Source of the DNA: a virus
Strand: one strand, 5' to 3'
IMG/VR virus record: IMGVR_UViG_3300037222_000038
Span: 4,897-68,896 of that record
DNA length: 64,000 nt
The position numbers and the translations under genes are program-made. The notes below the pieces were generated by a model, which worked only from the letters and a program-made list of their open reading frames with translations, did no database searches and had not been told where the DNA came from. Shown here piece by piece: positions 4,665-55,102 of the stretch (the stretch's first letter is position 1; every line of letters starts with the position of its first letter).

Positions 4665-5074
4665 AGCGTTTCGACTTAGTTGGCGGAATGATGCGAGAGG
4701 CTGCTGACGGAAACTACGTCCACTACGATGGCGGTGGCCAGTGGATGGACTGCACGGAATCTGAAATTAAGCGGCCTGAGTACCTGCTGTCTCATAATTC
4801 GCGCCCGCTCGCCGACTTCATTCAGGAATGGCTGGCGTCGAACTCGATTACGGACATCAGGACGATTTACCACAACCCGTTTCCGATCGGATTCGTGATG
4901 ACCTGTATTGACAGATACGAACGAGCCGAGCAGCTACTTCGAGAACTCAAACCCGAAAGGTTCGCGCCACACACGCACGTCGCAGGAGACGGCGACAAAA
5001 TCGACACCTGCAAGGCGTGCGGACATGACATCAGGAACGAGATCCATACACGTTTACGCAAGGCTATGCAATGA
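4661..5074 (+). CDS. Hypothetical protein
   Basis: ATGA coupling; C-terminal CKACG..H. Confidence 0.65.
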   Translation: MKRFDLVGGMMREAADGNYVHYDGGGQWMDCTESEIKRPEYLLSHNSRPLADFIQEWLASNSITDIRTIYHNPFPIGFVMTCIDRYERAEQLLRELKPERFAPHTHVAGDGDKIDTCKACGHDIRNEIHTRLRKAMQ

Positions 5075-6117
5075 CCGCTGAAATGTTCGTCGAGCCCGAT
5101 ACGCTCGCGCCCGTAGATCGCTCCACGCTCGAAACCTGCGCCGAATGCCCGCGACAGGCGAGGTTCATCGAAACCAAGGCGGTGCTCAACGTAAACGGCT
5201 TCATGTTCAGTGGCCAGGAATGCCATGACGCCATCGGCGAGGTCATCACCGATTACGTCGAATCCCGCGGTCAAACCGGATTCAAGGATACGCAGGAACT
5301 CTTGCTGCAACGACTGTCGGCGGCGCGCCCGGACGTGCAACCAGACGTTATCAAAGCCGTGGAGAGGTCGGCGTATTCGATTTCTAAGTACCTGCACGAA
5401 ATTCACTGGCAGAATATCCGCTGCTGGGACGGCGGGCGCGGGGAACATTCCAGCCAACTGGCGTATGACTTGGAAGAATTCGGGCTTACCGTGACTAGCG
5501 AGCTCGATTTGCTCCACGACTCGGAATCGTCGGAAGTTCTCACCGAAGTTGACTTCAAATCCGGATTTCAGTTGTGGCGGCACGGCGATGTGAAATCCGC
5601 GTTCCAATTCCAGCTTCACGCCCTGCTTGTCGCCGCGAAGTTCCCGACGATCAAAGCCCTTGAAGTTCGCATCTGGAACACCAGACTGAACTCACTGACG
5701 TACCCCGTGCTGTTCAAGCTCGACTCCGAGTCGCTGTATCCGATCAAGTATCGCGTGCGGAATGCGGCGTTGGCCTATTTCAAGACCCGCGACAAAGCCC
5801 CGAACGACTGCGAAGCGTGGGCGCTTGTCGAGAAATGCGAAGCCTGCCCTGCCGCTCATCTGTGCGATGCCAGCAAGTTCCCGTGCGACGAATCACCCGA
5901 GCAAGTCGTTGATAAGATCGTGGCCCTCGAAGCGCAGGCGAACGGGCTGCGGAAGGTCGCTCAGAAGTTCGTGAAGGACTCAAAACAAGAAATCGTAACT
6001 CCCAATGGAAATGCGTTCGGCCTGGACCGCCCGAAGCGCAAAACGTCACCAAAGTTCGAGGTCTATCAGTTGAAATCCAAGTCTGAAGAATCCCCAACCG
6101 AAGGAGAAACCGAATGA
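5071..6117 (+). CDS. PD-(D/E)XK exonuclease, Cas4/AddB-like
   Basis: N-terminal CP, ELDLL...VDFKSG, QLHA, C-terminal CEACPAAHLC. Confidence 0.75.
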   Translation: MTAEMFVEPDTLAPVDRSTLETCAECPRQARFIETKAVLNVNGFMFSGQECHDAIGEVITDYVESRGQTGFKDTQELLLQRLSAARPDVQPDVIKAVERSAYSISKYLHEIHWQNIRCWDGGRGEHSSQLAYDLEEFGLTVTSELDLLHDSESSEVLTEVDFKSGFQLWRHGDVKSAFQFQLHALLVAAKFPTIKALEVRIWNTRLNSLTYPVLFKLDSESLYPIKYRVRNAALAYFKTRDKAPNDCEAWALVEKCEACPAAHLCDASKFPCDESPEQVVDKIVALEAQANGLRKVAQKFVKDSKQEIVTPNGNAFGLDRPKRKTSPKFEVYQLKSKSEESPTEGETE

Positions 6118-6293
6118 GCGACAAGACTGAATCCAAACCGTCCACGATGCCGCCAGTCGCCAGCGTCGATGCCCAGGACACCGCCATGAAGCTCCGCAAG
6201 CTCACGCTCAAGAAGCTGAACGAACTCACGCCGGAACTGCGGTCGTGGGTCGTGGCCTGCCTCGCGGATGACATCGCGAAAGCGAACGGCTGA
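6114..6293 (+). CDS. Small hypothetical protein (59 aa, below ORF-track cutoff)
   Basis: AAGGAG RBS, ATGA coupling, MSDKTESK... Confidence 0.6.
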   Translation: MSDKTESKPSTMPPVASVDAQDTAMKLRKLTLKKLNELTPELRSWVVACLADDIAKANG

Positions 6294-6321
6294 TTTCCGA
6301 TACCGTCACGGAACCGACATC

Positions 6322-6645
6322 ATGCAACTCGCAATCAACTTCGACAGGCCCATACAGCCACGCGACCCGCACATTGACCCGCGAGACGTGCCGCGCGTGT
6401 CGAGGCAGTGCAGGCTGATCCTGGAGAGGCTGCGTGTGGGACCGGCGACTAATGCAGAGCTTGTCGGGATCGCCATGAACCTTACGGGGAGGATCAGCGA
6501 CCTGCGCGGCGCGGGGTACGTCATCGTCGGGAAGCGAATTGAGGGCGGTCTTTGGGAATATAGGCTGGGAGATGTACAGGAGAAGGGGAATTCATGCTTC
6601 ACATCCTCTTGTCCAGGCTGCATTCTGGAAAGACAACAAATGTGA
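6322..6645 (+). CDS. Winged helix-turn-helix protein
   Basis: ILERLRVGPATNAEL...LTGRISDLRGAGYVI...WEYRL. Confidence 0.7.
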   Translation: MQLAINFDRPIQPRDPHIDPRDVPRVSRQCRLILERLRVGPATNAELVGIAMNLTGRISDLRGAGYVIVGKRIEGGLWEYRLGDVQEKGNSCFTSSCPGCILERQQM

Positions 6646-6720
6646 GATTGTCACTCGAATTCACAAAGTCCCAATGGACCGCTTTGACCAAAAAGATAGT
6701 CTCTGAACTGAACGAAAGGG

Positions 6721-6742
6721 ACTGACATACTTGAAGCAGAAC
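6721..6742 (+). repeat. 22-bp cassette-flanking repeat, left copy 1
   Basis: actgacatacttgaagcagaac, identical to 12567-12588. Confidence 0.95.
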
Positions 6743-6762
6743 CCCAACAAGGAATTACGAGA

Positions 6763-6966
6763 ATGGCAATCACCTACCTGAACCACGAAGTTGTGTTGCA
6801 TGACATGGGAAACGGAGTGGGCATCAGCGTCAAAGGCGAAATGGTGGAAGGCGAACAACTGAACAGACTTGTGGAATGGATGAATAATTCGACTTCGTTT
6901 TGTCAGGGAAAAATCGACATTCGCAACGTCATAGCCCCAGAGCCCGCTCCGCGAGATTCAATGTAA
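6763..6966 (+). CDS. Hypothetical 67-aa protein between inverted repeats
   Basis: AAGGA RBS; stop abuts the right repeat. Confidence 0.65.
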   Translation: MAITYLNHEVVLHDMGNGVGISVKGEMVEGEQLNRLVEWMNNSTSFCQGKIDIRNVIAPEPAPRDSM

Positions 6967-6988
6967 GTTCTGCTTCAAGTATGTTAGT
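6967..6988 (-). repeat. 22-bp repeat, inverted right copy 1
   Basis: gttctgcttcaagtatgttagt, 1 mismatch to reverse complement of left copy. Confidence 0.95.
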
Positions 6989-7009
6989 GCCGAACGAAAA
7001 GTAGCACGG

Positions 7010-7873
7010 ATGGCGAATTACATCGAATGGTCCAAGGGGCTCGCGGATAAGCGCGAGACGGTCATTATGGCCGCTTCTCTGCGGATCGACAGGCACGAGG
7101 CCGCTGGTCGTCTGATGAAGTTTTGGGAGTGGTGCGATGAGAATGTGCCAGAAGAGGTCATCGACAAGGACACTGGGGATGCTGTCATTGTTTTGTCACC
7201 GAATCGCGGTGACACAGAAAAGTTCATAGATCAGGTTGCGTGCATAAAAGGGTTCTCGAAGGCAATGGAAAGTGTCGGCTGGATTGTTCACAAGAGGTCG
7301 GCAATCGTGCTTCCAAACTACGGCAGACACAACGGGTCAACTGCCAAGACTCGCAACAGAAACACGAGAAATCAAGCAAAAAGGCGAGTTCCGACTGTCA
7401 CTAATTTGTCACCGATTGACGGTGACAAAAATGCGACCAACGGAACGGAACATAACGTAACTAAACAAAAATGTACGAACGAACGTTCGTCAGAGAATAA
7501 TGGGAATGAAAAACGAGGTCCGTGGGAGTTCGAGATACCGTTCTTGTCGAACGTCGTGACAGACCATTTGAAGGACGATGCGGCCATTTGTTTCATTCAC
7601 AGGAATTGCACGTCACAAGTCCCAGCCGCTGTTTCTCCAGATGAGACTGGACTCACGAAAATGTTTGCGTGCGCAGTCATTGGGATTCGAGGAAAGACGA
7701 ATCCGTTAAACCTTTTCAAGTCGCTCGTCTCAAATCCATCCAGCACGACGATCGTCGCCGAAGACATGCGGCGCGCCGAATCTCGACTGAAAAAACACCG
7801 AACCTACATCCGCGAGAACCCTGGAATTTATGAATCGAAGTTTACTCCGCTTTGCGACGAGGTGCCGCAATGA
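7010..7873 (+). CDS. Putative replication initiation protein
   Basis: N-terminal 'GRLMKFWEWCD...GFSKAMESVGW...LPNYGRHNGSTAKTR' typical of phage initiators, followed by a low-complexity linker. Confidence 0.65.
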   Translation: MANYIEWSKGLADKRETVIMAASLRIDRHEAAGRLMKFWEWCDENVPEEVIDKDTGDAVIVLSPNRGDTEKFIDQVACIKGFSKAMESVGWIVHKRSAIVLPNYGRHNGSTAKTRNRNTRNQAKRRVPTVTNLSPIDGDKNATNGTEHNVTKQKCTNERSSENNGNEKRGPWEFEIPFLSNVVTDHLKDDAAICFIHRNCTSQVPAAVSPDETGLTKMFACAVIGIRGKTNPLNLFKSLVSNPSSTTIVAEDMRRAESRLKKHRTYIRENPGIYESKFTPLCDEVPQ

Positions 7874-8142
7874 CCCTCCGCGAAGAATACGAATCCGGTT
7901 GCACGATCCTGTGCCTCGCCATTCGCCACAAGACGCATCAGCGGGCGATTCAGGATGAACTCAAGCGTCAGGGCACTCGGATGCGCCCACGTAGCTATCC
8001 GCGTGACTGGAAGGCTGAAAACAACGATCAGATCCTGAGACTGGCCGAGCGCGGGCATACGAAACAGGAAATCGCGCACGCCATCGACTGCTCGGTGCAA
8101 CACGTCGGGCGCGTGCTTCGGAAGAACGGAGTGTTCGCATGA
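7870..8142 (+). CDS. HTH DNA-binding protein
   Basis: ILRLAERGHTKQEIAHAIDCSVQHVGRVL. Confidence 0.75.
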   Translation: MTLREEYESGCTILCLAIRHKTHQRAIQDELKRQGTRMRPRSYPRDWKAENNDQILRLAERGHTKQEIAHAIDCSVQHVGRVLRKNGVFA

Positions 8143-8396
8143 CCCAACAGCAAATCCTCGCCTTCCTGTCCTCCCAAAAGTCACCGCTGACCGACCGGCA
8201 GATTACGACACAGAACCGCCTGAACATCCTCGACGCCGCCGACTGCGAGGGTAGCCTGTTGACGATGCTTTACGCGGGATGGCTGTGTGAACCGAATGGA
8301 GAGTTCAACGGCTGGCTGATAACTGACGCGGGCCTCGAAGAGTTGAAGCGTTTGTCGAACGTGAAGCCGGAAAAGAAACAGGCGGCGCTGTTCTAA
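8139..8396 (+). CDS. Hypothetical protein, winged-helix-like
   Basis: Coupled; WLITDAGLEEL. Confidence 0.6.
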   Translation: MTQQQILAFLSSQKSPLTDRQITTQNRLNILDAADCEGSLLTMLYAGWLCEPNGEFNGWLITDAGLEELKRLSNVKPEKKQAALF

Positions 8397-8454
8397 CCAA
8401 CTCCCGCCGTCCACATATCACAGAGATCATCAAGGAACTCGGGGAGATCGTGAC

Positions 8455-8649
8455 GTGAGCAAGACATTCGATGACGTGATTCAATACCTGAAGCATCGCG
8501 CCGATTTACACGACAGCGATTGGGATAAAGAGCCCGATCTGGAAAAGGGCGTGATTCATCTTGCGTGCGAACGGGCCGTAAAGTCTTGCATTCGCGGATT
8601 GAAGGCTATGAAGAAGCGCGGCAAGATCGACAAGGACTCCGTATCGTGA
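8455..8649 (+). CDS. Hypothetical protein
   Basis: GGGGAG RBS, coupled downstream. Confidence 0.6.
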   Translation: MSKTFDDVIQYLKHRADLHDSDWDKEPDLEKGVIHLACERAVKSCIRGLKAMKKRGKIDKDSVS

Positions 8650-8936
8650 GCCAGAACTACCCGTTCCACTGCGGGACACAGTACATGGACTGGGAAGAGT
8701 CGAACTGCGGCCGGTGTCGCAAGGCGTCGTTCGGCGAAGGGCTGCCGACGTGTCCGCTGCAACTGGCATTGATGACGGCGTGTTTCGGCGACGGCAGCGT
8801 CTCGGATGATATCGCCGAACGTATCGGATTCACGGAGCACGAAGGCCATTACTGCTGGCCGTGCAAGGAACTGGACGACGCGACTAGGCCACAGACGATC
8901 AAGCCGTTGCTAAACCAGATCGAGATGTTTCAATGA
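8646..8936 (+). CDS. Cys-rich hypothetical protein
   Basis: GTQYMDWEESNCGRC...CPL. Confidence 0.65.
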   Translation: MSQNYPFHCGTQYMDWEESNCGRCRKASFGEGLPTCPLQLALMTACFGDGSVSDDIAERIGFTEHEGHYCWPCKELDDATRPQTIKPLLNQIEMFQ

Positions 8937-9247
8937 CTACGGGAGTTAATCGGATGACCACAACAGAAAAAATCGCGTTGATTCCTGAAGCGGATCTGCG
9001 GATGGCCACCGCAGAACTCATTGATGCCGTCAAGGCGCAGGGCTATTTGCCAAAGCTCGGGGGAGCGCCGATTTCAAAAGCACTCCGCGCATTCGAGCCG
9101 TCGCCGATCGACATTGGGAGGGATGCACTGAAGGCGGCGGGACTCGTGCGCGTAAATGGAACTAGGTTTCACAGTGACGGTTCAATTTGCTTTTCAACGT
9201 ATGGCACTAACTGCGAATTCTGGAATCTCCCGGAGTCAGCGACATGA
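8933..9247 (+). CDS. Hypothetical protein
   Basis: Coupled ORF. Confidence 0.6.
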   Translation: MTTGVNRMTTTEKIALIPEADLRMATAELIDAVKAQGYLPKLGGAPISKALRAFEPSPIDIGRDALKAAGLVRVNGTRFHSDGSICFSTYGTNCEFWNLPESAT

Positions 9248-9735
9248 AGCGCACTGCCTTCAAACAGACGCCACCCAAACGTCTGCCAGCCGCGGAAGCA
9301 TTCACGTATCACTGGTACGGCGAAGAATTCCCATACGATGAAATCGGCCGCTGGATGGGTTGTCGCGTGCGGGATGGAAAGTTTCGGATGTTCGCCGAGC
9401 GGCTGGATATTTATGGCAATCTGCAACGGCACCACATTGTCCGCGTGGGGCGCAGGAGACATCTTCGCAGCGTACTCATCGTAGTCACGGAAGAGAATCG
9501 CCACTGGGTGCAGTCGGTATGTCCGAACGAGGGGCTTGTGGCGTGCGTACTGTCGAAGCTCAGAAAAATGGAGTCGCTTGGCGATCCGGCGGAATTCGAT
9601 CTTGATGAGGTCGCTCTGGCGAACGGCGGCAAGTCGGTCAAGGCGGAAATCGAGGCGTTTGTGTTTGAAGAAGAGCGCTGGAGAACATGGCAAGAGGAAA
9701 CACTGGAACGGCTTGGAAAGTTGGTGACGACGTGA
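9244..9735 (+). CDS. Hypothetical protein, possible degenerate HNH
   Basis: MKRT start, QRHHI...H; no canonical CxxC pairs. Confidence 0.5.
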   Translation: MKRTAFKQTPPKRLPAAEAFTYHWYGEEFPYDEIGRWMGCRVRDGKFRMFAERLDIYGNLQRHHIVRVGRRRHLRSVLIVVTEENRHWVQSVCPNEGLVACVLSKLRKMESLGDPAEFDLDEVALANGGKSVKAEIEAFVFEEERWRTWQEETLERLGKLVTT

Positions 9736-10100
9736 ACACAGAACAGGCAACTGGCGTTACTCCAGACGACATGATCGCTGCCGGGTATGTGCGATACGAT
9801 CAGAGCGGACCTTGCCATAAGCACGCCGACTGCATTTATTCCACGACGGTTCGCGGCGAGGGCAAGAAACTGTATTTTCTGCACGCCTACTATTACGACC
9901 GCACCAAACGATCCGGAGACGAGGTATTCGACTGGCCGCATGGATGGGTTGTCGAGGCTTGCTTTTTCCTTGAGGACGGAACGTATTTCGATGTGGGCCA
10001 CAACAGCCTGAACGAACTCGGCATCAAGGAAATGGAACGCTTTTATGCCGAGATTTACGAAGTGTTGCATTGTGTTCCGGACATCCACAACAACGACTGA
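9732..10100 (+). CDS. Hypothetical protein
   Basis: GTGA coupling. Confidence 0.65.
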   Translation: MNTEQATGVTPDDMIAAGYVRYDQSGPCHKHADCIYSTTVRGEGKKLYFLHAYYYDRTKRSGDEVFDWPHGWVVEACFFLEDGTYFDVGHNSLNELGIKEMERFYAEIYEVLHCVPDIHNND

Positions 10101-10132
10101 GTGAAATCAAGGCGGGAAGGAGAATCGAAGCC

Positions 10133-10354
10133 ATGAAGAAACCCAAGACACCGAAGCCGATCAGGGGATGGTGCGTTGTCGGCAAATATTCAGGTATTCA
10201 CTGGAGCACGTTCGCATTAACGCGAAAGGAGTCAATCAGCGTCGGGGAACAAAACAACTGCGGCGTCTGGAGTAATATGCGCAAGAACGGATTTTCCGTC
10301 CAGCAATTCGATCTGGTCCCCGTCAAGGCTAAGAGAAAGGTGAAGCGATCGTGA
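10133..10354 (+). CDS. Hypothetical basic protein
   Basis: AAGGAG RBS. Confidence 0.6.
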   Translation: MKKPKTPKPIRGWCVVGKYSGIHWSTFALTRKESISVGEQNNCGVWSNMRKNGFSVQQFDLVPVKAKRKVKRS

Positions 10355-10530
10355 GCGATCAAGGCGTGTCGATCCCGTTTTTTTGTGCCGCAATCCGCGT
10401 TCTGGAAAGGGAGCACGGAAAGAAAATGGTTGGTGAAAATGCGGAAGAATTCAGGGCTGCTTTGGCTCGCGCCGAAGCAATCATGAAGGACTGGCCACCT
10501 GCCGAAAAGAAGCGAAAGGCTAAGAAATGA
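10351..10530 (+). CDS. Small hypothetical protein (59 aa)
   Basis: Coupled both sides, MSDQGVSIPFF... Confidence 0.55.
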   Translation: MSDQGVSIPFFCAAIRVLEREHGKKMVGENAEEFRAALARAEAIMKDWPPAEKKRKAKK

Positions 10531-10724
10531 GCGTCACAATCACACTGATCGAGAGGGACTACAAGCCGAAGCATATTGTTCTCGATCGAATTCCGTGCAT
10601 CCATGAGGACATCATTCTGGCCGGCATGGAGTATCACATTACGTCGGTGAGGCACATAGCCGACTTAATTCCGGCGAGTGCGGAAGTCCGTGTGACGCGG
10701 TTTGGGAAGGGGGAACCGGAATGA
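10527..10724 (+). CDS. Hypothetical protein
   Basis: ATGA coupling. Confidence 0.6.
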   Translation: MSVTITLIERDYKPKHIVLDRIPCIHEDIILAGMEYHITSVRHIADLIPASAEVRVTRFGKGEPE

Positions 10725-10817
10725 GCGAGCATCAACGCTGGTTCTGGCGCATGGATTCACGGCAGCGGCATTGCACGCAAGGCACGTATGCCGCGGACTA
10801 TTTCTGGAACGACTGAT

Positions 10818-11069
10818 ATGACCCAAACCCCCAACATACAAAAGCTGATAACGCACAAGATGGCGCTCATCATGTGCCCGGCAGACGCTGGAATCGGTGC
10901 CGCATTGAACTCACTGGCGAAGGCCGGAAACATCGGTGCCGTGTGTCGCGAGGCCACGGCATGGGTCGAGAGCGTGATAGCGTTGGTCAAAACAGCACCG
11001 GACAATCCGTACCAGAGTGACGACGAGATTGCCGGTGCGATACTCAAGGTACTTCAAGAGAGAAAGTAG
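10818..11069 (+). CDS. Hypothetical protein
   Basis: ORF in operon. Confidence 0.6.
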   Translation: MTQTPNIQKLITHKMALIMCPADAGIGAALNSLAKAGNIGAVCREATAWVESVIALVKTAPDNPYQSDDEIAGAILKVLQERK

Positions 11070-11078
11070 GAGCGAGCG

Positions 11079-11456
11079 GTGGCTTCAAGAAAGTTTCGTG
11101 TCAGTAAACAGTGCTTTCATCCCGGCTGCGATCATTCGGCAATCTGGGAATTCGATTCGAGAAAGGCGTACCTGAACTCGCATGAATTCAGGTTGTACGA
11201 GAAGGGCCACGCTCCCTACTTCTGCGCCAAACACTCTCGCGGAAACGGCGTGTTATCGGCATCGAATCTATTCGCTGAATGGATCTCGGAACCTTCACGG
11301 CCAATGGAGAAATATCCAGAGGATCCGTACCTCAGTTTTGGTTCGCAGGGAATCATCTTCGGTCCCGGATTCGCTGCTGAAGGGTGCGACTTCCCGACTG
11401 GAACGCGAATCAAGGTGACTGCCGAAGTGCTCTTGCCGGAGACCGATCATGTGTGA
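11079..11456 (+). CDS. Hypothetical Cys/His protein
   Basis: AGGAG RBS; CFHPGC...FCAKH. Confidence 0.65.
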   Translation: MASRKFRVSKQCFHPGCDHSAIWEFDSRKAYLNSHEFRLYEKGHAPYFCAKHSRGNGVLSASNLFAEWISEPSRPMEKYPEDPYLSFGSQGIIFGPGFAAEGCDFPTGTRIKVTAEVLLPETDHV

Positions 11457-11883
11457 ATGCGGCTGCGTCGGCAACGACAATAAATACCTATTCCCCGGAC
11501 CCGGCAATACGCACTACGTACTGACGCTTCACGGCGGCTGTATCGAATGCGAATCGCCTTCCGGGTTCACAATCGAGCGTGTCGATTCAACGAATGTGCT
11601 CTGGGAAGAGTTCAATCGCGGCGAGTTCTTGACTGGCAATCTGGCGTTCGCCAAGTGGCCCGACAGCGTGGGCGTGGCGTTCATCACCGGCATGTTGCGA
11701 CCCGAATTCATCGAGGCCACGAAGTCGCACCTGATCGGCATCGACTCGAAAGACTTCGCTAACGACGCCGACAAACGCAGCCGTGATATCGACGAATACG
11801 GAGCCGAGGCGATCCTTGAAGAGATGTACGAAGACGCACAGACGAAACCCCGATTAGTGGAGCCCAGCGATGGCACTATCTAG
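11449..11883 (+). CDS. Hypothetical protein
   Basis: GGAG RBS; MCECGC...CIEC. Confidence 0.65.
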   Translation: MCECGCVGNDNKYLFPGPGNTHYVLTLHGGCIECESPSGFTIERVDSTNVLWEEFNRGEFLTGNLAFAKWPDSVGVAFITGMLRPEFIEATKSHLIGIDSKDFANDADKRSRDIDEYGAEAILEEMYEDAQTKPRLVEPSDGTI

Positions 11884-11922
11884 AACAAATTGGTGGCCGA
11901 ACAAATCATGGGAGTGGTGGCA

Positions 11923-12180
11923 ATGACCATCGTCGAATCCCAGTCCGATTCCCTGATCCATCTGACTACACCAGGCTCGACAACAGCCCTGTGCGGCAAG
12001 ACATGGCATCGCCCGCTACCGCACATCCCGCTGCACCTGTTCGGCGTCGTCGAGCTGCTGGAAGACGGCACGCCAGACATGCCGTGGTGTCCAGCGTGCA
12101 CGCGGAAGCACAGGCCGAGCGGAAACGCTTTGTATCACAAGCACCTGAAGACGATGCGAGAAAAGGGAGTTGTGCAGTAA
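11923..12180 (+). CDS. Small zinc-binding hypothetical protein
   Basis: H...LCG...CPAC. Confidence 0.6.
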   Translation: MTIVESQSDSLIHLTTPGSTTALCGKTWHRPLPHIPLHLFGVVELLEDGTPDMPWCPACTRKHRPSGNALYHKHLKTMREKGVVQ

Positions 12181-12548
12181 TGCCCGGACGAATCGTGATG
12201 AAGGCCCGCTGGAAGAACGCCAGCCGCAAACGCGGGGAAATGAACAAGCTCGAATTAGCCTACAGCCAAGAGCTTGCGTATCGAAAACAGGCCGGGACCA
12301 TCGTTGATTGGCGTCACGAACTATTTAAGCTGCGGCTGGCGGACAACACGACATTGACGGTTGACTTCGTGGTGTTCACAAATGACGGGTTCATCGAGCT
12401 TCACGATTGCAAGGGGAGCTTTTTTCCTGAACACAATAAAATCAAATGGAAGGTCGCAATTGAGCAATGTCCGTGGTTCACGTTCGTGCTGGTGCGCCAG
12501 AGAGCCAAGAAAAACGGCGGCGGATTTGAGTATGAGAGGTTTGAATGA
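12180..12548 (+). CDS. DUF1064-like PD-(D/E)XK endonuclease
   Basis: MNKLELAY...VDFVV...ELHDCKG...IKWK. Confidence 0.75.
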   Translation: MPGRIVMKARWKNASRKRGEMNKLELAYSQELAYRKQAGTIVDWRHELFKLRLADNTTLTVDFVVFTNDGFIELHDCKGSFFPEHNKIKWKVAIEQCPWFTFVLVRQRAKKNGGGFEYERFE

Positions 12549-12566
12549 AGGATGCCATTTTTAGGC

Positions 12567-12588
12567 ACTGACATACTTGAAGCAGAAC
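12567..12588 (+). repeat. 22-bp repeat, left copy 2
   Basis: actgacatacttgaagcagaac, ends 10 nt before the MTase ATG. Confidence 0.95.
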
Positions 12589-12598
12589 ACGGAAAAAC

Positions 12599-13357
12599 AT
12601 GACGCAAAATGAAACACTAACCTTTGGATCACTGTTTGCAGGAATAGGAGGATTCGATCTTGGACTTGAACGCTCCGGGATGCGGTGCCGCTGGCAGGTC
12701 GAGATCGACCCGTTCGCGCAATCAGTCATCGCAAAGCACTGGCCAGACGTTGGACAATGGGACGACGTGCGCACCTTTCCGCCGCATCCCGCCTCCGATT
12801 GGGCCGTCGATGTCATTTGCGGCGGATTCCCGTGTACAGACATCAGCCAGGCCGGAGGTAAGTCAGGAATTGATGGAGAAATGTCAGGACTTTGGGCCGA
12901 GTATCGGAGAATCATTCTCGAGATTCGACCCAGAGTCGCGATTGTGGAAAACGTCTCAGCGATCACTTCTCGAGGATTGGATAGAGTTCTCGGGGATCTG
13001 GCCGAGATCGGGTTTGATGCGGTCTGGCACTGTATACCGGCTACGGCCGTTGGCGCGCCGATTGGAGGATGGGGACGAGATCGGATCTGGATTGTGGCCG
13101 TGCCCAACAGCGGAGGATGCAAGCGGCAGGGGCTATCACGGGGATTTGAATGGAAAGTATTACGCAGCTTTGCCGGGAGCGGTGGCGGTGTCGCTCGGCT
13201 ACCCGATTCAGCATCCGATCACTGGGAAAATGAACCCGACGTGGGTCGAGTGGCTGTTGGGGTTCCCGACAGAATGGACCGCATCAGGTGTCTCGGAAAC
13301 TCGGTAGTTCCACAAGTTGCGGAATGGATAGGACGCCGCATTTTGCAACACAAATGA
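12599..13357 (+). CDS. DNA (cytosine-5) methyltransferase, main polypeptide
   Basis: Motifs I FAGIGG, IV GFPC, VI ENV, VIII RDRIWIVA, X LGNSVVP; no motif IX in this frame. Confidence 0.93.
   Translation: MTQNETLTFGSLFAGIGGFDLGLERSGMRCRWQVEIDPFAQSVIAKHWPDVGQWDDVRTFPPHPASDWAVDVICGGFPCTDISQAGGKSGIDGEMSGLWAEYRRIILEIRPRVAIVENVSAITSRGLDRVLGDLAEIGFDAVWHCIPATAVGAPIGGWGRDRIWIVAVPNSGGCKRQGLSRGFEWKVLRSFAGSGGGVARLPDSASDHWENEPDVGRVAVGVPDRMDRIRCLGNSVVPQVAEWIGRRILQHK
12810..13307 (+). CDS. Overlapping-frame second polypeptide of the C5 MTase (motif IX carrier); start uncertain
   Basis: +1 frame open 12660-13307, ends MNPTWVEWLLGFPTEWT; possible ATGs at 12810 and 12873. Confidence 0.65.
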   Translation: MSFAADSRVQTSARPEVSQELMEKCQDFGPSIGESFSRFDPESRLWKTSQRSLLEDWIEFSGIWPRSGLMRSGTVYRLRPLARRLEDGDEIGSGLWPCPTAEDASGRGYHGDLNGKYYAALPGAVAVSLGYPIQHPITGKMNPTWVEWLLGFPTEWTASGVSETR

Positions 13358-13359
13358 AA

Positions 13360-13381
13360 GTTCTGGTTCAAGTATGTCAGT
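13360..13381 (-). repeat. 22-bp repeat, inverted right copy 2
   Basis: gttctggttcaagtatgtcagt, 1 mismatch; 2 nt after MTase stop. Confidence 0.95.
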
Positions 13382-13595
13382 ACCTTACGATGACATCAAG
13401 CAGGCGATTAGTGACGCGCCGCAAACATTCCTGCCTGCATTATTGGCAAATTGTGTCGAGGCGTGCATCGACAAGAAGGTATTTCGTGACAACTCGTCAA
13501 TTGAGAAATTCGTATCCAGTGTGATTCAAAAGACCGTATTAAATCGGCGAGCAAGTCGGTCTATCCAGACACTCGACGGCGATCCAGCCGGTTAA
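13374..13595 (+). CDS. Hypothetical protein
   Basis: ATG lies inside the right repeat. Confidence 0.5.
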   Translation: MSVPYDDIKQAISDAPQTFLPALLANCVEACIDKKVFRDNSSIEKFVSSVIQKTVLNRRASRSIQTLDGDPAG

Positions 13596-13620
13596 ACGCT
13601 AACTTATCCGGAGAGCGGAT

Positions 13621-13839
13621 ATGACTGAACGCGAAATGGTAGACATGATTCGCGGCGACAGAAAACAATTGGCAGAGGCCAAGCGGTTGCGAAATCGAAG
13701 GCTCTATAACGAAATTGCGGAACGAATCGCATTCAACAAGTCACTTTCGTGTGACGGCAAGCTAGACAAATCTCGCCATCGTGAATTACTCGAAGCGATG
13801 AAGTTTGATTACGCCACCCACGACAACCCACAGGAGTAA
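13621..13839 (+). CDS. Hypothetical protein
   Basis: GGAGA RBS. Confidence 0.6.
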   Translation: MTEREMVDMIRGDRKQLAEAKRLRNRRLYNEIAERIAFNKSLSCDGKLDKSRHRELLEAMKFDYATHDNPQE

Positions 13840-13842
13840 CCA

Positions 13843-15018
13843 ATGCCTACCGCGTTCCCGTCCGCCGATCGGCGAATACTCGACAAAAGCGATTCCGAAA
13901 AAGCGGCGGCGTGGAGCGATGTGTTCGATGCCATTGAAACTGCATCACCAGGTTGGTTTATGGCTGAACCGATCGCTAGCGGTAGAGACCGTGCCATCGA
14001 GTTCATTAAGCAGGCGTCCGCCGATCGGCAGGAAGTCGAGCGGCTACAAGGACAAATGATTGAACTCGCAAAGGATGGTGCGGAAGAACGGATGCGGCTG
14101 GGCATTGAGATCAAGCGGCTGCGTCAGGTCGCTGAGGAGTGTGAGGGGAAGATTAGGGAAATCGTTGACTGTTGGGCGATCTTTGAATCCGGAACACAGT
14201 CAAGATCGCTTCTCGCAATCTCCGACCGACTCGCAGCGGTGCAGCCTGCCGAGAGCCAGACCGAAACCCAAGAGATCAAGAATGATCCGGAAACAATGGC
14301 CGCATTGAAGCGGAGTGACGAAGACGTGGCCGCTGGTCGAGTCGTGCCGTTCGAGGAGGTCAAGAGGCAGCTTGGGATCATGCCATCCGCAGAACGACTC
14401 ACGGCGGTGCAGCCTGAATACCCTGTCGCTGACTTCATCGCACCGATTTCGATGGAGCGGCGGAATTCCAAGAGCGTGCCACGCGCTGCCGGAGAGACGC
14501 TGGCCGATGCGCTAGAGGCAGCCTACATAGAGGCTGAATCAAAGGGCGTTGTTTTTATCAGCACGTTGCGTCCGATTTTGGCGCGTCACCTCGCCGGCCT
14601 CGAACTCCCTCCAGCCGTTCCCGCGGTGCCAGTCTCATCGTGGGAGCCTGCGGCTGCGATATGCGAGGATGTAGCCTTGCGAACGTCTATCAATCCGAGA
14701 ACCCTCTTGCGAGAAGCCGCCGCGGAGATCCGCAAGCTGCCGGTCGCGGGCGGGAAGCGGAGCGAACAGCGTTGGGGAATCGTGCGAGACGGAAAATTCG
14801 TGTGCTTCAAGGGCATGGCGTGTAATGATCCGTCCGCATTGATAACGCTGTCGTGGGATGATCCCGCAGCCCCGGAGCCTGCGAAGGAGCCGTTCGACGT
14901 GAAGGCTGCGCGAACTCGTCTCGGCGACGAATACGAGCGCGGAAGCATTCAGGGAATGGCGGAAGTCTGCCAAGAGGCATTTGCTGAAATCGAGAGACTG
15001 AGATTGAATACCCCTTGA
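13843..15018 (+). CDS. Mosaic hypothetical protein with coiled-coil and antitoxin-like insert
   Basis: AGGAG RBS, 391 aa; internal direct repeats 14227-14248 and 14395-14416. Confidence 0.7.
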   Translation: MPTAFPSADRRILDKSDSEKAAAWSDVFDAIETASPGWFMAEPIASGRDRAIEFIKQASADRQEVERLQGQMIELAKDGAEERMRLGIEIKRLRQVAEECEGKIREIVDCWAIFESGTQSRSLLAISDRLAAVQPAESQTETQEIKNDPETMAALKRSDEDVAAGRVVPFEEVKRQLGIMPSAERLTAVQPEYPVADFIAPISMERRNSKSVPRAAGETLADALEAAYIEAESKGVVFISTLRPILARHLAGLELPPAVPAVPVSSWEPAAAICEDVALRTSINPRTLLREAAAEIRKLPVAGGKRSEQRWGIVRDGKFVCFKGMACNDPSALITLSWDDPAAPEPAKEPFDVKAARTRLGDEYERGSIQGMAEVCQEAFAEIERLRLNTP

Positions 15019-18254: not shown

Positions 18255-18739
18255 TGGCCAACGGACAAACAGCGCTGCCCCAAGCCGCCGTCGATGACTA
18301 CTGGGATGTGAGCGTTGGCGAATACGCGAAACGACAGGCGTTGTTCACGGCTGCGGTGGCACAGGCATACGGATTTCCGGCCTCGCCACCCGGAGGAATT
18401 ACCCGTAGCACGGTGACGAACCACAATTATGCCACGCCTGCACAGCCGGCCGCTGCGCCCACAACTCCGGCTGCCCCAAGTGAAACGACGCCGCCCTCAA
18501 GCACGTCACCTTCACCGGCAGCCGGGTTGTTATCGAGTCCTCTTGCCCAAGGGCTGCTGCTGGGCCTGGGCGGACCTGCACTGCTGGGGGCCGGTGCCCT
18601 CTTGCACAGTTCGGGGCTGTTCGGGAACAGCGGCACGCCAGCTACACCGCCGGTTGTGGCACCGATTCAACAGGCTGTTGACCTCGGGACGATTGGCCCC
18701 GATGGAAAATTTATCCCCCCCGCAGGAACCACGCCATGA
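18254..18739 (+). CDS. Pro/Thr-rich membrane protein
   Basis: Low-complexity linker then GLLLGLGGPALLGAGALL. Confidence 0.7.
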   Translation: MANGQTALPQAAVDDYWDVSVGEYAKRQALFTAAVAQAYGFPASPPGGITRSTVTNHNYATPAQPAAAPTTPAAPSETTPPSSTSPSPAAGLLSSPLAQGLLLGLGGPALLGAGALLHSSGLFGNSGTPATPPVVAPIQQAVDLGTIGPDGKFIPPAGTTP

Positions 18740-18912
18740 CCCCGAAACAATCCGAGCAAGCCCTCGCCAAGTCGATGGAACGGCTCGAAGCAGCACAGAT
18801 CAACCTTCCCAAAACCTGCAAGGCATACTCCGACGCCCTCGAAGAACTGGCGAGTGCCATGCTCGACGTGGAAGAGAAGCAAGCGGCATTGGTGGCCGCG
18901 AACAGCAAGTGA
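18736..18912 (+). CDS. Small coiled-coil protein (58 aa)
   Basis: ATGA coupling, AGGA RBS. Confidence 0.55.
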   Translation: MTPKQSEQALAKSMERLEAAQINLPKTCKAYSDALEELASAMLDVEEKQAALVAANSK

Positions 18913-18995
18913 GTACCCAGTCTGGAGCGCACGGACCCGCCAGTGAGCCATGCGGCAATCCGTGCAAGCCAGCGCATAACCCAAAAGGAAATTTC

Positions 18996-19385
18996 ATGCG
19001 CAAACTGACAAACCACAAAGTCAACGGACTGAATGAAGCCATCACGATCACGGTCATGGATGAGCCGGGACCGGGCGGTGCGAATCACATCTACGTTGTT
19101 CGGGCTGGCGTTAAGCCGCGAGTTCGAGACGGCAGTAGTTACTATGCCGACGAACAAACGATTCAATTTCAGAACGGACCGATCGGCGAAGTCGGCGTGA
19201 ACGGCATCAGCGGCGAGGCGCTCATGGCAATCCTCGAAGATCGGCTCAAATCATTCCAGGCCGGCCCCTACGCTTGCCGTGAGAATGCGCTGGCTCTGAC
19301 GCATCTTCAAGAGGCGATGCACTGGCTGCATCACAGGACTCGGGAGCGAATGCAACGAGGCGTCGAAGGAACAATGGCGAAGTAA
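18996..19385 (+). CDS. tad1: Tad1-like anti-defence nucleotide sponge
   Basis: EPGPGGANHIY, FQNGP, DRLKSFQAGPYACRENALALTHLQEAMHW..R..ER..RGVEGT closely follow Tad1 as I recall it. Confidence 0.8.
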   Translation: MRKLTNHKVNGLNEAITITVMDEPGPGGANHIYVVRAGVKPRVRDGSSYYADEQTIQFQNGPIGEVGVNGISGEALMAILEDRLKSFQAGPYACRENALALTHLQEAMHWLHHRTRERMQRGVEGTMAK

Positions 19386-48604: not shown

Positions 48605-49132
48605 TTAATATGGCAACTGATCTTCCGTGGTGAGTCCCGGTATGTACATCGGCTGTTCTTCTTCGTAGGAAATCTGCGGTAGACCGCGAATATCTCGCTC
48701 CCGCGCATCGAGTTTCTGGGGGTCGCTGTAGCTTCCGCCTTTGCCGTGGCAGGAGTAGAAGCCGTGTGATTCGGCGTAGCGCTTGTACTGACCTTTCGAT
48801 CGGAACACGGCCCGTCCCGCCTCATCGTATTCGATCGGGCATCCCAGTTCGGCATCGGCTTTCATGTGCTTCACTCGGTCGTCGGGGTTGATTCCGAGTT
48901 CGTCCGATTTCATCACGAACACGCCCGTCCCGTGGGTGGCACCAGTCTTGCCGATCTTCAGCAACGTCTCGGTGTGCTTACTGCCGTCGAGCCTGGACTC
49001 GAACGTGAACTTGTCGCCCGGCTTGATCGGCCCGCGTTTCTTCTTACGGCGCGAGAGCAACAGGTCGCAGTCGATCTTGAGCGTGTATTCGCTGCCGGTG
49101 TCGTCTCGTTTCATGCGGAACTGCTGGATCAT
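48605..49132 (-). CDS. Hypothetical protein
   Basis: ATGA overlap with portal stop. Confidence 0.65.
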   Translation of the reverse strand: MIQQFRMKRDDTGSEYTLKIDCDLLLSRRKKKRGPIKPGDKFTFESRLDGSKHTETLLKIGKTGATHGTGVFVMKSDELGINPDDRVKHMKADAELGCPIEYDEAGRAVFRSKGQYKRYAESHGFYSCHGKGGSYSDPQKLDARERDIRGLPQISYEEEQPMYIPGLTTEDQLPY

Positions 49133-51066
49133 GCAACACCCGGTTTCGTGTTTGTTGAACCCATGTTTGATACCAATTCGGCCGTACTTTCCTTCCCGGT
49201 TTTCGGCTTCACGACTCGATCGTACTGGCGAGTTGTGTTTTGTTTGCCCGGTGACGTGTTCGCCATCTGTTGATCCGGGTCGGGCAACTGCTGGTTGAAC
49301 TTGATGATGTCCCGCAACTGCTTTACGCCGCTCAACTCTTCCTTGGCCTGCATCCACGCCTGCGCGTCCACGGTGACGCCCTGCTGTTGCAGGAACGGCA
49401 ACAGTGGAATGAGCTGCTGCACCGTGCCGTCAATCGCCGCAAGCTGCTGACTGGGGGTCATGTCGATCAGCGAATACGGAACCACGGTGAAGTTCAGATC
49501 GTTGAACTCGCCCTGCCGCAGATCGTGCTCCTGCCCGAACATATCCGTCTCTTTCGGCCACTGGATTTCATACTCCACGTCGGTATCCGGGAGATTGTCC
49601 ATCACCGAAACCTTGACGAGCGGGTCATTCCAGAGATACCAGGCGATCGCCGTGATGACGCTCTTGGTGACGTTGATGATCTCCTGTTGCATCATCTGAA
49701 TGCGGCCCGATGCCGACTGCTGAAGGATCTGCTCTTGACCGAGCGTGTCAGCGCCGGTTGCAGTGCCACCCATCGTATCGAGGTTTCCGGCCTCTTCCGA
49801 AGCGCGATGAGCCACGACTTGTTCCGTGGTCATTAAGCCTTGGTCGGCACCCCCGAACTTCATGAACTTGATCGCGTCGGGATGCGTAACAGCGATAACT
49901 TCACCGTCGCCGGCTCGCACGACTTTCTCGGCATCTTTGAACGCCGCCATCGACGCAAACCCCACGTCTTTCTGGCGACTGGCCTGCTGTCCCATCTTCT
50001 CGAACAGCCTGTTGTCGAGGTCCGACAGCGGCGCAATGTCGATCGCCGGGGGCTTGGGCATGATCTGATTGAGCACCAGCTTGTAGCGCCCGATCCGGTA
50101 CGGTCCTTCAGGATGCCCGGTCCACGCCTCGACCCGCAACGGCTTATCGCCTGCCACGGGATACGTGACGATCAGTTTCTTGCGCGGCAGGTAAATATCC
50201 CAGAGCCACACATCATCGCTCTCTTCGGTGTCCAGCGCAGCCTGCTTGTTGCCACCCATGTCGCTGGCTGATTCCTGCCCGGTCGCTTGATCGAAGGCCG
50301 TCATCTGGCCTTGCAGATTCTGCGCGACTTCCCGGTCGTTGCGGCCATCGGCGATGATCGACTTGCGGGAGGCTTTGTATTTATCCCCCATGAACTTGCA
50401 TTCGGCCAGCCGCGAGACTGAAGTGTCGTACACGAAGTCCTCGAACCACACGGCATCGCAGAACGGCATGGCCGATGCGTCGAACGGGTAGTTCCGTTGC
50501 GTGTACTGCGGGTCTTCCACGCCGACTTTCATTACCATCATGCTGAACAACGATTCGAGAACCCCCATGCGCAGGGATTCTTTCAGGTTGATCTGAGTCA
50601 GAATGTGGTTCAGAGCCAGTTGGAAGTAGCGACAACCGGCCTTGAGCACCAGCTTGTTCGTGAGGATCAGGCACTGCGGGTTTCCGCTGATGAGCTTCTG
50701 CATGTAGACTTCAACCATGCGATCCAGCAGGTTGACGACGCAGGCGTGCGCTCCCTGTCCATCGCCAGCCGTTCCCAGCGAGTTGCCGACGTACTGCTTC
50801 AGGGTCCGCAAACGATTCGTGCGTTGCGGCTGCATGTTCTGATAGCTCTTGCTCACCTTGTCCTTGAGCTTCAGGAACTCTTCGTCAGTCAGCAGCGGCT
50901 TGGCGACTTGACCGGCCGCTATCGACTGCACCTGTTGCAAGTGCGGATCGACCGGAGGCGGCGGGGGGGTCGGTTGTGGAGGCTGAGGCGGCTGCTGTTG
51001 CGGCATCCCTTGGGGCGGCATGGGCGGTCGGGGCATCGGCTGAGGCGGCTGCATTATTGACATCAT
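49129..51066 (-). CDS. Portal protein
   Basis: 645 aa directly after TerL; T7/P22-like pattern; Pro/Gln-rich N-terminal extension. Confidence 0.8.
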   Translation of the reverse strand: MMSIMQPPQPMPRPPMPPQGMPQQQPPQPPQPTPPPPPVDPHLQQVQSIAAGQVAKPLLTDEEFLKLKDKVSKSYQNMQPQRTNRLRTLKQYVGNSLGTAGDGQGAHACVVNLLDRMVEVYMQKLISGNPQCLILTNKLVLKAGCRYFQLALNHILTQINLKESLRMGVLESLFSMMVMKVGVEDPQYTQRNYPFDASAMPFCDAVWFEDFVYDTSVSRLAECKFMGDKYKASRKSIIADGRNDREVAQNLQGQMTAFDQATGQESASDMGGNKQAALDTEESDDVWLWDIYLPRKKLIVTYPVAGDKPLRVEAWTGHPEGPYRIGRYKLVLNQIMPKPPAIDIAPLSDLDNRLFEKMGQQASRQKDVGFASMAAFKDAEKVVRAGDGEVIAVTHPDAIKFMKFGGADQGLMTTEQVVAHRASEEAGNLDTMGGTATGADTLGQEQILQQSASGRIQMMQQEIINVTKSVITAIAWYLWNDPLVKVSVMDNLPDTDVEYEIQWPKETDMFGQEHDLRQGEFNDLNFTVVPYSLIDMTPSQQLAAIDGTVQQLIPLLPFLQQQGVTVDAQAWMQAKEELSGVKQLRDIIKFNQQLPDPDQQMANTSPGKQNTTRQYDRVVKPKTGKESTAELVSNMGSTNTKPGVA

Positions 51067-54632: not shown

Positions 54633-55102
54633 CATACCGCGATCTGATTAAGGTGGCGATGGACTGGCAGCGGATTCTGGATTCAAATGATCTGGATTCA
54701 CTTTCAATAGGACGCAGGAAGCCGTCGCCACTGACATTCATTCTCGGAAGAGTCATGAGGATGATTCCGGAAGAGTTGCGTGGAACTTCGATCGAAGATT
54801 TCGAGAGCAATTGTCGCACACTTTTTGCCGTCGATGCCGCCAACAAAGTTTACGATGCCCTCGGAAGGGGGACAGCCGAAAGACAGCCCTTGGACGCGAC
54901 TCGATTATGGTCTTCTGAAACCTACCCCGGTCGCATTTGCGCTGTTCGCATTCAGATTGATTCAAAGGGAGTCGATCCTCTCCGCGAACAACTCCTTAAA
55001 CCCATCAGCCACGGCCACGTCTACCACATCCTCGCCGCACTGTATCCCAAGTTCCCGGAGTTCTGCGACAAGAAATTCCCTCTGGAGTCCCCGCACGTAT
55101 AA
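54629..55102 (+). CDS. Hypothetical protein
   Basis: Coupled both sides. Confidence 0.6.
   Translation: MTYRDLIKVAMDWQRILDSNDLDSLSIGRRKPSPLTFILGRVMRMIPEELRGTSIEDFESNCRTLFAVDAANKVYDALGRGTAERQPLDATRLWSSETYPGRICAVRIQIDSKGVDPLREQLLKPISHGHVYHILAALYPKFPEFCDKKFPLESPHV

What the first reader, a model, noticed from the sequence alone, without database searches (positions are those of the whole stretch)
6721..13381. Two unrelated genes each bracketed by the same 22-bp inverted repeat: candidate single-gene cassette system
Seen: actgacatacttgaagcagaac at 6721-6742 and 12567-12588 (identical), and its reverse complement at 6967-6988 and 13360-13381 (one mismatch each; 6967-6991 matches 12564-12588 over 25 bp). 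Each inverted pair encloses one gene locus: a 67-aa ORF whose stop touches the right repeat, and the C5 methyltransferase (10 nt before ATG, 2 nt after stop). No transposase lies inside, I see no clear target-site duplication, and the site is not itself palindromic. Inference: these are ends of non-autonomous gene-sized cassettes moved or flipped by a trans-acting recombinase. I cannot match them to IS ends, attC, dif or hix sites.
Basis: partly seen in the sequence, partly recalled or inferred. Interest (0 to 1): 0.88.

Follow-up and report, generated by a model that had tools for sequence, protein, structure and literature searches.

The report
IS1595-derived transposase-less cassettes in a phage
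The repeated 22-bp motif is the end sequence of a known kind of jumping gene (an IS1595-family insertion sequence), and the two bracketed genes sit in transposase-less derivatives of it, an ordinary class of mobile element seen here inside a phage.

Summary
In detail: four copies form two inverted pairs, with 0 expected by chance. The arms are actually 25 bp and start with GG.

The same arms (25/25 and 22/25) bound a 1,926-bp element in an unrelated provirus. That element has its own 8-bp duplication and an IS1595-family transposase inside. Among 42 related transposase loci, 25 have GG-tipped 25-bp arms plus a perfect 8-bp duplication, against 1 of 42 in a control. Each window arm matches 13 of 14 conserved arm positions.

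So these are a 274-bp MITE-like element and an 821-bp "mobile insertion cassette" carrying a C5 methyltransferase. Both lack a transposase and a promoter.

The second cassette has no target duplication. The 67-aa ORF is an orphan. No empty, excised or inverted forms were seen (contigs only). The flipping idea is not supported.

Verdict: a new member of a known kind, of modest interest.

The parts
6710..6717 (.). Left copy of the 8-bp target-site duplication (GAACGAAA) of element A
   Evidence: identical to 6992-6999 and directly abutting the arm.
6718..6742 (+). Left 25-bp terminal inverted repeat of element A (GG tip outward)
   Evidence: I13; agrees at 13 of 14 strongly conserved positions of the IS1595-lineage arm consensus.
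6763..6966 (+). 67-aa ORF that fills the interior of element A; an orphan, so its coding status is uncertain
   Evidence: One search lists the ORF; apart from itself, one weak hit (E = 5.4e-4) among 1.84 billion representatives; no Pfam or PHROG family. GC1/2/3 of 0.54/0.34/0.57 is compatible with coding.
6967..6991 (-). Right 25-bp terminal inverted repeat of element A
6992..6999 (.). Right copy of the 8-bp target-site duplication (GAACGAAA) of element A
12564..12588 (+). Left 25-bp terminal inverted repeat of element B
12599..13357 (+). Passenger gene of element B: a short (252 aa) C5 cytosine DNA methyltransferase
   Evidence: PF00145, E = 7.9e-37; phrog_363, E = 1.9e-68, covering residues 2-250; relatives in 80 viral loci, most aligning over nearly the whole protein at 37-59% identity.
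13360..13384 (-). Right 25-bp terminal inverted repeat of element B; the flanks show no matching 8-bp duplication

Best explanation
The 22-mer is the core of the 25-bp terminal inverted repeat of an IS1595-family insertion sequence. The phage carries two transposase-less derivatives of that IS.

Element A (6718-6991, 274 bp) is MITE-like. It inserted by transposition into the short spacer between a winged-helix gene and the replication-initiator gene, and it duplicated 8 bp of target (GAACGAAA).

Element B (12564-13384, 821 bp) is a mobile insertion cassette. The space between the IS ends is filled by a C5 DNA methyltransferase gene instead of a transposase.

Inferred, not shown: an IS1595-type DDE transposase supplied in trans, from the host or a co-resident element, binds the arms and moves the unit, making 8-bp AT-rich duplications. 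Neither cassette has its own promoter, and both cargo ORFs point the same way as the phage operon, so any expression would come from read-through. B's missing duplication is best explained by later recombination between two copies or by an adjacent rearrangement. The methyltransferase probably protects phage DNA from host restriction.
For: 1. Same arms around a transposase elsewhere. In provirus G001 (locus L007), arms at 73-97 and 1974-1998 match the 25-mer search pattern (third base free) with 3 and 0 mismatches. They are flanked by a perfect 8-bp repeat, TTCGGAAT. They enclose an ORF with PF12760 and PF12762 domains (P0001).

2. Family-wide signature. 25 of 42 related transposase loci have 25-bp arms plus a perfect 8-bp duplication, against 1 of 42 in a reverse-not-complement control. 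22 of the 23 distinct elements have GG at both tips. Each of the four window arms agrees at 13 of 14 strongly conserved consensus positions, while random window 25-mers average 3.4 with a maximum of 10.

3. Element A has a perfect 8-bp duplication abutting both arms.

4. Target duplications average 75% AT in loci that average 43% AT. Passages in PMC7835479 report experimental 8-bp AT-rich duplications for an IS1595-family element. [quoted passage not shown]

5. No PF12762 domain occurs in the 68.9-kb virus record.

6. The window and the three G001 loci share no tblastx similarity at 1e-5. The near-identical arms therefore sit in unrelated backgrounds.

7. None of the 80 methyltransferase relatives in viral contigs has such arms.

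8. Relatives with a transposase carry varied passenger ORFs and measure 1.6-2.8 kb.
Against: Element B has no target duplication (flanks CATTTTTA and TTACGATG), so its arrival by simple transposition is not shown.

The only transposase found with near-identical arms (G001) has lost about 39 residues, including the nearly invariant Y-T-D block, and is probably dead. The closest intact relative's arms (L033) differ at 4-5 of the 25 positions from the window's four arms.

No empty-site, excised or alternative-cargo allele of this phage was found. Four runs show one arrangement (contigs only), and no phage relatives were retrievable.

Each element is single-copy in the record.

The 67-aa ORF has no relatives, so 'gene cassette' may not apply to A.

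One of the 80 methyltransferase loci (L115) has a RusA-like gene directly upstream, as here. This is a weak hint that the methyltransferase could be resident at this position.
Confidence: 0.86

Rival explanations
1. These are invertible (phase-variable) segments. A site-specific recombinase, for example the phage's small serine recombinase at 55102-55782, flips each gene between the inverted sites and so switches it on or off.
For: The sites are in inverted orientation around promoter-less genes. The record encodes a small serine recombinase (PF00239, E = 1.3e-28).
Against: The arm has no dyad symmetry: 4 of 25 positions. That serine-invertase crossover sites need such symmetry is my recollection, not a result of any call. 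The recombinase lies about 42 kb away, and no copy of the motif lies near it. No inverted junction appears in the 4 runs laid (contigs only, so this is weak). The 8-bp duplication at A and the homology of the arms to IS1595 ends are not expected of inversion sites. No tyrosine recombinase is present.
Confidence: 0.03
2. The pairing matters at the RNA level. In the read-through transcript the two 25-nt arms form a long-range duplex that encloses each cargo ORF, giving an RNase III-type processing or translation-control stem. On this reading the IS origin is incidental, or the ends have been co-opted.
For: The minimum-free-energy fold of 6710-7000 pairs the two arms end to end (-93.2 kcal/mol). 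The arms lie 10-20 nt from the start codons and 0-2 nt from the stops.
Against: Any inverted repeat pairs when it is transcribed. No covariation can be tested, because only four arms exist and they are near-identical. The duplication and the transposase association already explain why the arms are there. No RNA run holds this sequence (0 rows on record as RNA).
Confidence: 0.06
3. These are operator or iteron sites for a phage DNA-binding protein, either the winged-helix protein at 6268-6645 or the replication initiator at 7010-7873. The sites bracket genes by looping.
For: The sites lie in intergenic spacers of the replication module, next to a wHTH gene and a replication-initiator gene.
Against: The same arms occur in an unrelated provirus with no shared proteins. 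There they bound a transposase-bearing element that has its own 8-bp duplication. The arms also fit the consensus of 44 IS arms.
Confidence: 0.03

Closest known systems
Mobile insertion cassettes (MIC/mic), e.g. MIC231 of Bacillus cereus and the mic elements carrying qnrS2 or qnrD
   Same: A passenger gene is bracketed by two IS-type inverted repeats with no transposase inside, and mobilisation in trans by a cognate IS transposase is presumed. The definition comes from passages read in PMC3913671. PMC3129680 also mentions MICs. Element B fits: 25-bp arms, one passenger gene and no transposase.
   Different: The parent here is the IS1595 family, not IS231. The location is a phage genome and the cargo is a DNA methyltransferase. 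B lacks the target duplication that the definition calls 'usually observed'. Mobilisation has not been shown.
MITEs (miniature inverted-repeat transposable elements) derived from bacterial ISs
   Same: Element A is 274 bp, has terminal inverted repeats identical in type to those of a transposase-bearing IS, has a perfect target duplication of the family's length (8 bp), and has no transposase.
   Different: It is single-copy in the record, whereas MITEs are usually multi-copy in a host genome. Its interior is one 67-codon ORF rather than obviously non-coding DNA, and it shares no internal sequence with the full-length relatives beyond the arms.
IS1595-family insertion sequences and 'transporter ISs' (tIS) with passenger genes. 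The source is Siguier, Gagnevin and Chandler 2009, seen only as a citation in PMC3129680 and PMC8101967; I did not read the paper itself.
   Same: The arms have GG tips, are 25 bp long, come with an 8-bp AT-rich target duplication, and are associated with a Zn-finger plus DDE_Tnp_IS1595 transposase. The relatives in viral contigs measure 1.6-2.8 kb and carry extra ORFs, as a tIS does.
   Different: The window elements have no transposase at all, so they are derivatives rather than ISs.

Membership tests
IS1595-family-derived non-autonomous element (MITE/MIC) | Terminal inverted repeats homologous to those of transposase-bearing IS1595-family members | tested here: met
   G001 arms match the 25-mer pattern with 0 and 3 mismatches; the window arms agree at 13 of 14 conserved positions of a consensus built from 44 arms; random 25-mers reach at most 10.
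IS1595-family-derived non-autonomous element (MITE/MIC) | 8-bp target-site duplication directly abutting the arms | tested here: met
   Met for element A: GAACGAAA on both sides. Not met for element B: CATTTTTA against TTACGATG. The family norm of 8 bp comes from PMC8101967 (passages) and from 25 of 42 loci.
IS1595-family-derived non-autonomous element (MITE/MIC) | No transposase gene between the arms | tested here: met
   the interiors hold only the 67-aa ORF or the methyltransferase; no PF12762 anywhere in the 68.9-kb record.
IS1595-family-derived non-autonomous element (MITE/MIC) | A cognate transposase exists that is associated with the same arms | tested here: inconclusive
   The G001 element has the arms and a PF12760/PF12762 ORF, but that ORF has lost about 39 residues, including the Y-T-D block. 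Intact relatives such as L033 have arms that differ at 4-5 of 25 positions. No intact copy with identical arms was found.
IS1595-family-derived non-autonomous element (MITE/MIC) | Mobilisation in trans by the transposase | not testable with these tools
   This needs a transposition assay. Contig-level read laying showed no alternative junctions.
Mobile insertion cassette (MIC) | Carries a passenger gene unrelated to transposition | tested here: met
   Element B carries a C5 methyltransferase: PF00145, E = 7.9e-37 and phrog_363, E = 1.9e-68. For element A this is inconclusive, because the ORF is an orphan.
Serine-invertase (Hin/Gin-type) invertible segment | Crossover sites with dyad symmetry, a recombinase gene adjacent, and both orientations present in the population | tested here: not met
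   Dyad symmetry is 4 of 25. The recombinase lies about 42 kb away. The 4 runs laid show one orientation only (contigs only). The defining features themselves are recalled, not taken from a call.
Integron gene cassettes (attC) | A single imperfectly palindromic attC at the 3' end of each cassette, plus an IntI tyrosine recombinase | tested here: not met
   No PF00589 domain occurs in the record. The sites come as inverted pairs, not as one site per cassette. The defining features themselves are recalled.

The most novel reading that the evidence does not exclude
Promoter-less, IS1595-derived single-gene cassettes act as a working shuttle for phage accessory genes, here an anti-restriction methyltransferase. 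Host-encoded IS1595 transposases move them between unrelated phages and proviruses. The 25-bp arm duplex in the transcript additionally sets cargo expression.
Probability: 0.12. Interest if true: 0.55.

Novelty: new member of a known kind. Interest (0 to 1): 0.27.

Why it matters
This turns an apparent new "single-gene cassette system" into a documented class: IS-derived MITE and MIC elements of the IS1595 family. What remains notable is modest. Transposase-less IS derivatives are found inside a phage replication module, and one carries a DNA methyltransferase. That suggests IS ends can ferry anti-restriction genes into phage genomes. Near-identical arms in two unrelated viral backgrounds also point to recent horizontal spread of this IS lineage. 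For annotation, such arms plus an 8-bp duplication should be labelled as IS remnants, not as regulatory sites.

Tried and rejected
Empty-site search. The search for related loci with the replication initiator found nothing in viral contigs. tblastn with six window proteins (the 67-aa ORF, the methyltransferase, wHTH, Rep, RusA-like and orf73) against loci L005-L108 gave no hit at 1e-2. No close relative of this phage was therefore available.

Exact-motif scans. The strict pattern gave 1 viral locus (G001), 0 genome contigs and 1 metagenome contig. The metagenome hit (L006) lies inside a 663-aa ORF, has no GG tip and has no partner arm, so I take it as chance.

The looser pattern gave 19 viral loci. 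Two of these are the two ends of the G001 element. The other 17 are single copies without a partner: 15 share one conserved flank, and 2 share another. The 2 genome hits are also single.

A third pattern gave 6 loci: G001, the L033 contig twice, and 3 single hits.

Read laying. Four runs, all kept as contigs, show no joints. Three of them may be the source sample. The fourth, independent run (X6) bridges only the right junctions of A and B. Contigs cannot show rare variants, so this is no evidence against excision or inversion.

Cargo origin. None of the passenger ORFs of 22 related elements resembles the window cargo. Of the 10 larger passengers scanned against Pfam, 2 are PAPS-reductase-like, 2 have sub-threshold hits and 6 have none.

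Composite-transposon reading (6718-13384 as one unit). Rejected because the outer flanks, GAACGAAA and TTACGATG, do not match.

The contigs of the closest full-length transposases (P0002-P0011) could therefore not be inspected, and I used viral contigs instead.

In some searches, 42 of the 80 loci were examined. I dropped the other 38 beforehand because their matches were truncated or partial, or because identity was about 48% or lower.

Paper supplements were closed and I did not ask for them. The 2009 paper that founded the IS1595 family was not readable here and is cited only through other papers' text. That no phage-borne IS1595 MIC is in print rests only, which returned 2 unrelated papers.
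Full report
OBSERVATION.

The 22-mer occurs four times in the window: at 6721(+), 6967(-), 12567(+) and 13360(-), with 0, 1, 0 and 1 mismatches. None of 100 dinucleotide-preserving shuffles gave any match. The window is bases 4897-68896 of a 68,896-bp IMG/VR virus record (G000, estimated 76% complete). The whole record holds only these four copies.

Reading the sequence and the repeat finder (I13, I3, I7) shows that the arms are 25 bp and start with GG. They lie at 6718-6742 / 6967-6991 (element A, 274 bp) and 12564-12588 / 13360-13384 (element B, 821 bp).

One thing was missed. Element A is flanked by a perfect 8-bp direct repeat, GAACGAAA, at 6710-6717 and 6992-6999, directly abutting the arms. 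Element B has no such repeat (CATTTTTA against TTACGATG).

CONTEXT.

The region is a phage replication and recombination module on the + strand:
- a PD-(D/E)XK nuclease, 5071-6117;
- a weak winged-helix hit, 6268-6645;
- a replication initiator, 7010-7873 (phrog_2509, E = 2e-24);
- a Holliday-junction-resolvase-like protein, 11991-12548 (phrog_190);
- the C5 methyltransferase, 12599-13357 (PF00145, E = 7.9e-37; phrog_363, E = 1.9e-68).

Without element A and one copy of the duplication, the spacer before the replication gene would be about 82 bp.

WHAT THE ARMS ARE.

A scan of viral contigs with the motif found one other record, provirus G001. There, arms at L007:73-97 and 1974-1998 match the 25-mer pattern (third base free) with 3 and 0 mismatches. 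They are flanked by a perfect 8-bp repeat, TTCGGAAT, at 65-72 and 1999-2006.

Between those arms lie small ORFs and a 290-aa ORF that carries the IS1595 transposase domains. PF12762 scores E = 1.8e-13 on its C-terminus. Two PF12762 pieces sit in one open frame. The precomputed domains for the identical protein P0001 are PF12760 plus PF12762.

This protein belongs to a very large family: 7,991 of the 8,000 scored candidates have E <= 0.001, and members are typically 313-325 aa. One source names a member 'IS1595 family transposase [Planctomycetes bacterium]'. In an alignment of 16 members, the G001 copy has lost about 39 columns, including the nearly invariant Y-T-D block, so it is probably inactive.

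FAMILY-WIDE TEST.

The search for related loci with that alignment returned 80 viral loci (128 of 151 candidate stretches encode a relative). I examined 42 of them, those with near-full-length matches. I asked for a perfect 8-bp direct repeat abutting 25-bp arms that are at least 15/25 complementary.

- 25 of 42 loci pass, against 1 of 42 in a control where the right arm is reversed but not complemented.
- After removing two duplicates, there are 23 distinct elements. 22 of them have GG at both tips.
- They measure 1.6-2.8 kb.
- Their duplications average 75% AT, in loci that average 43% AT.
- The consensus of the 44 arms is GGtAatnAtatACTTGACtCAncAn. Each of the four window arms agrees at 13 of its 14 strongly conserved positions. 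20,000 random window 25-mers average 3.4 and never exceed 10.
- The nearest intact relative (L033) has arms that differ from the window's four arms at 4-5 of 25 positions.

[quoted passage not shown] They also match the experimental 8-bp AT-rich duplications made by an IS1595-family element in PMC7835479.

WHAT THE TWO WINDOW ELEMENTS ARE.

Neither holds a transposase, and the record has no PF12762 domain at all. A and B share only their arms, plus about 7 nt inside the right arm.

Element A fits a MITE-like deletion derivative that inserted by transposition. Its 67-aa ORF has only one other hit (E = 5.4e-4) among 1.84 billion representatives, and no Pfam or PHROG family. Whether it is a gene is therefore open.

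[quoted passage not shown] It also cites the IS1595 family paper for 'transporter ISs' with passenger genes.

The transposase-bearing relatives here do carry varied extra ORFs. Two of the 10 scanned are PAPS-reductase-like.

None of the 80 relatives of the methyltransferase in viral contigs has such arms. The best is a single 19/25 match, while the window's own arms score 23-25/25 as a positive control. The bracketing is therefore specific to this phage.

The window and three G001 loci share no tblastx similarity at 1e-5, and they differ in G+C (57% against 62-64%). Near-identical arms therefore sit in unrelated backgrounds, as expected of a mobile element.

EXPRESSION.

No promoter-like site precedes either cargo. 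In 6200-13900 there are 2 weak sites, against 3.7 expected. The G001 element, by contrast, has a near-consensus TTGACG-16-TATAAT (11 of 12) just inside its left arm. Both cargo ORFs point the same way as the phage genes, so any expression would be by read-through. This is inference.

WEAK POINTS.

- B has no duplication, so transposition of B as a unit is inferred. Recombination between two copies, or an adjacent rearrangement, are the usual explanations, but neither is shown here.
- One of the 80 methyltransferase loci (L115) has a RusA-like gene directly upstream, as in the window. This is a weak hint that such methyltransferases are commonly resident in this module.
- No intact transposase with identical arms was found.
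- No empty-site, excised or inverted form was found. Four runs show one arrangement, but they are contigs, and three may be the source sample.

RIVALS.

Inversion by a site-specific recombinase. It lies about 42 kb away. The arm has no dyad symmetry (4 of 25). There is no tyrosine recombinase. An 8-bp duplication plus homology to IS ends is not what inversion sites look like.

RNA duplex. The arms do pair in the predicted fold of the transcript, as any inverted repeat would. A processing or control role is possible as a side effect but is untested.

Operator or iteron sites. This does not fit arms that also bound a transposase element in an unrelated provirus.

VERDICT.

The elements are IS1595-family derivatives: a MITE-like element and a mobile insertion cassette carrying a C5 methyltransferase, inside a phage from peat and permafrost metagenomes. 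This is a new member of a known kind, of modest interest.

Noticed in passing
window 13374-13595: The ORF downstream of element B (73 aa) starts at an ATG that lies inside the right arm (13374-13376). No in-frame start codon lies in the few bases between the arm and the ORF body. The insertion may have supplied or replaced this gene's start.
   Followed up: partly
window 55102-55782: A small serine recombinase (PF00239, E = 1.3e-28; 226 aa), with no large-integrase C-terminal domain. No motif copy or obvious strong inverted repeat lies nearby. Its target is unknown.
   Followed up: partly
window 18429-19385: A 318-aa protein has a hit to the Acb2/Tad1 hairpin domain (PF24729, E = 6.5e-6, 26.7 bits against a cut-off of 27), just below threshold. 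It is a possible anti-defence nucleotide sponge.
   Followed up: no
L007 124-160 (provirus G001): Just inside the left arm, a second partial copy of the arm core overlaps a near-consensus promoter, TTGACG-16-TATAAT, with TG before the second hexamer. This is probably the element's inward promoter and a subterminal transposase-binding site.
   Followed up: partly
L007 922-1794 (provirus G001): This IS1595-type transposase has an in-frame loss of about 39 residues that removes the nearly invariant Y-T-D block. Even the only transposase-bearing copy with these arms looks non-autonomous.
   Followed up: yes
L029-L105 (viral contigs with IS1595-type transposases): These elements measure 1.6-2.8 kb and carry varied passenger ORFs. 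Two (L051, L056) carry PAPS-reductase-domain proteins of about 300 aa. At least seven of the 22 have a small lysine-rich ORF of about 45-60 aa just after the transposase gene (count made by eye).
   Followed up: partly
window 49129-51066 (- strand): This 645-aa protein has a sub-threshold hit to the SU10 portal family (PF23899, E = 6.3e-6, 25.3 bits against a cut-off of 30). That fits a tailed-phage structural module on the minus strand.
   Followed up: no
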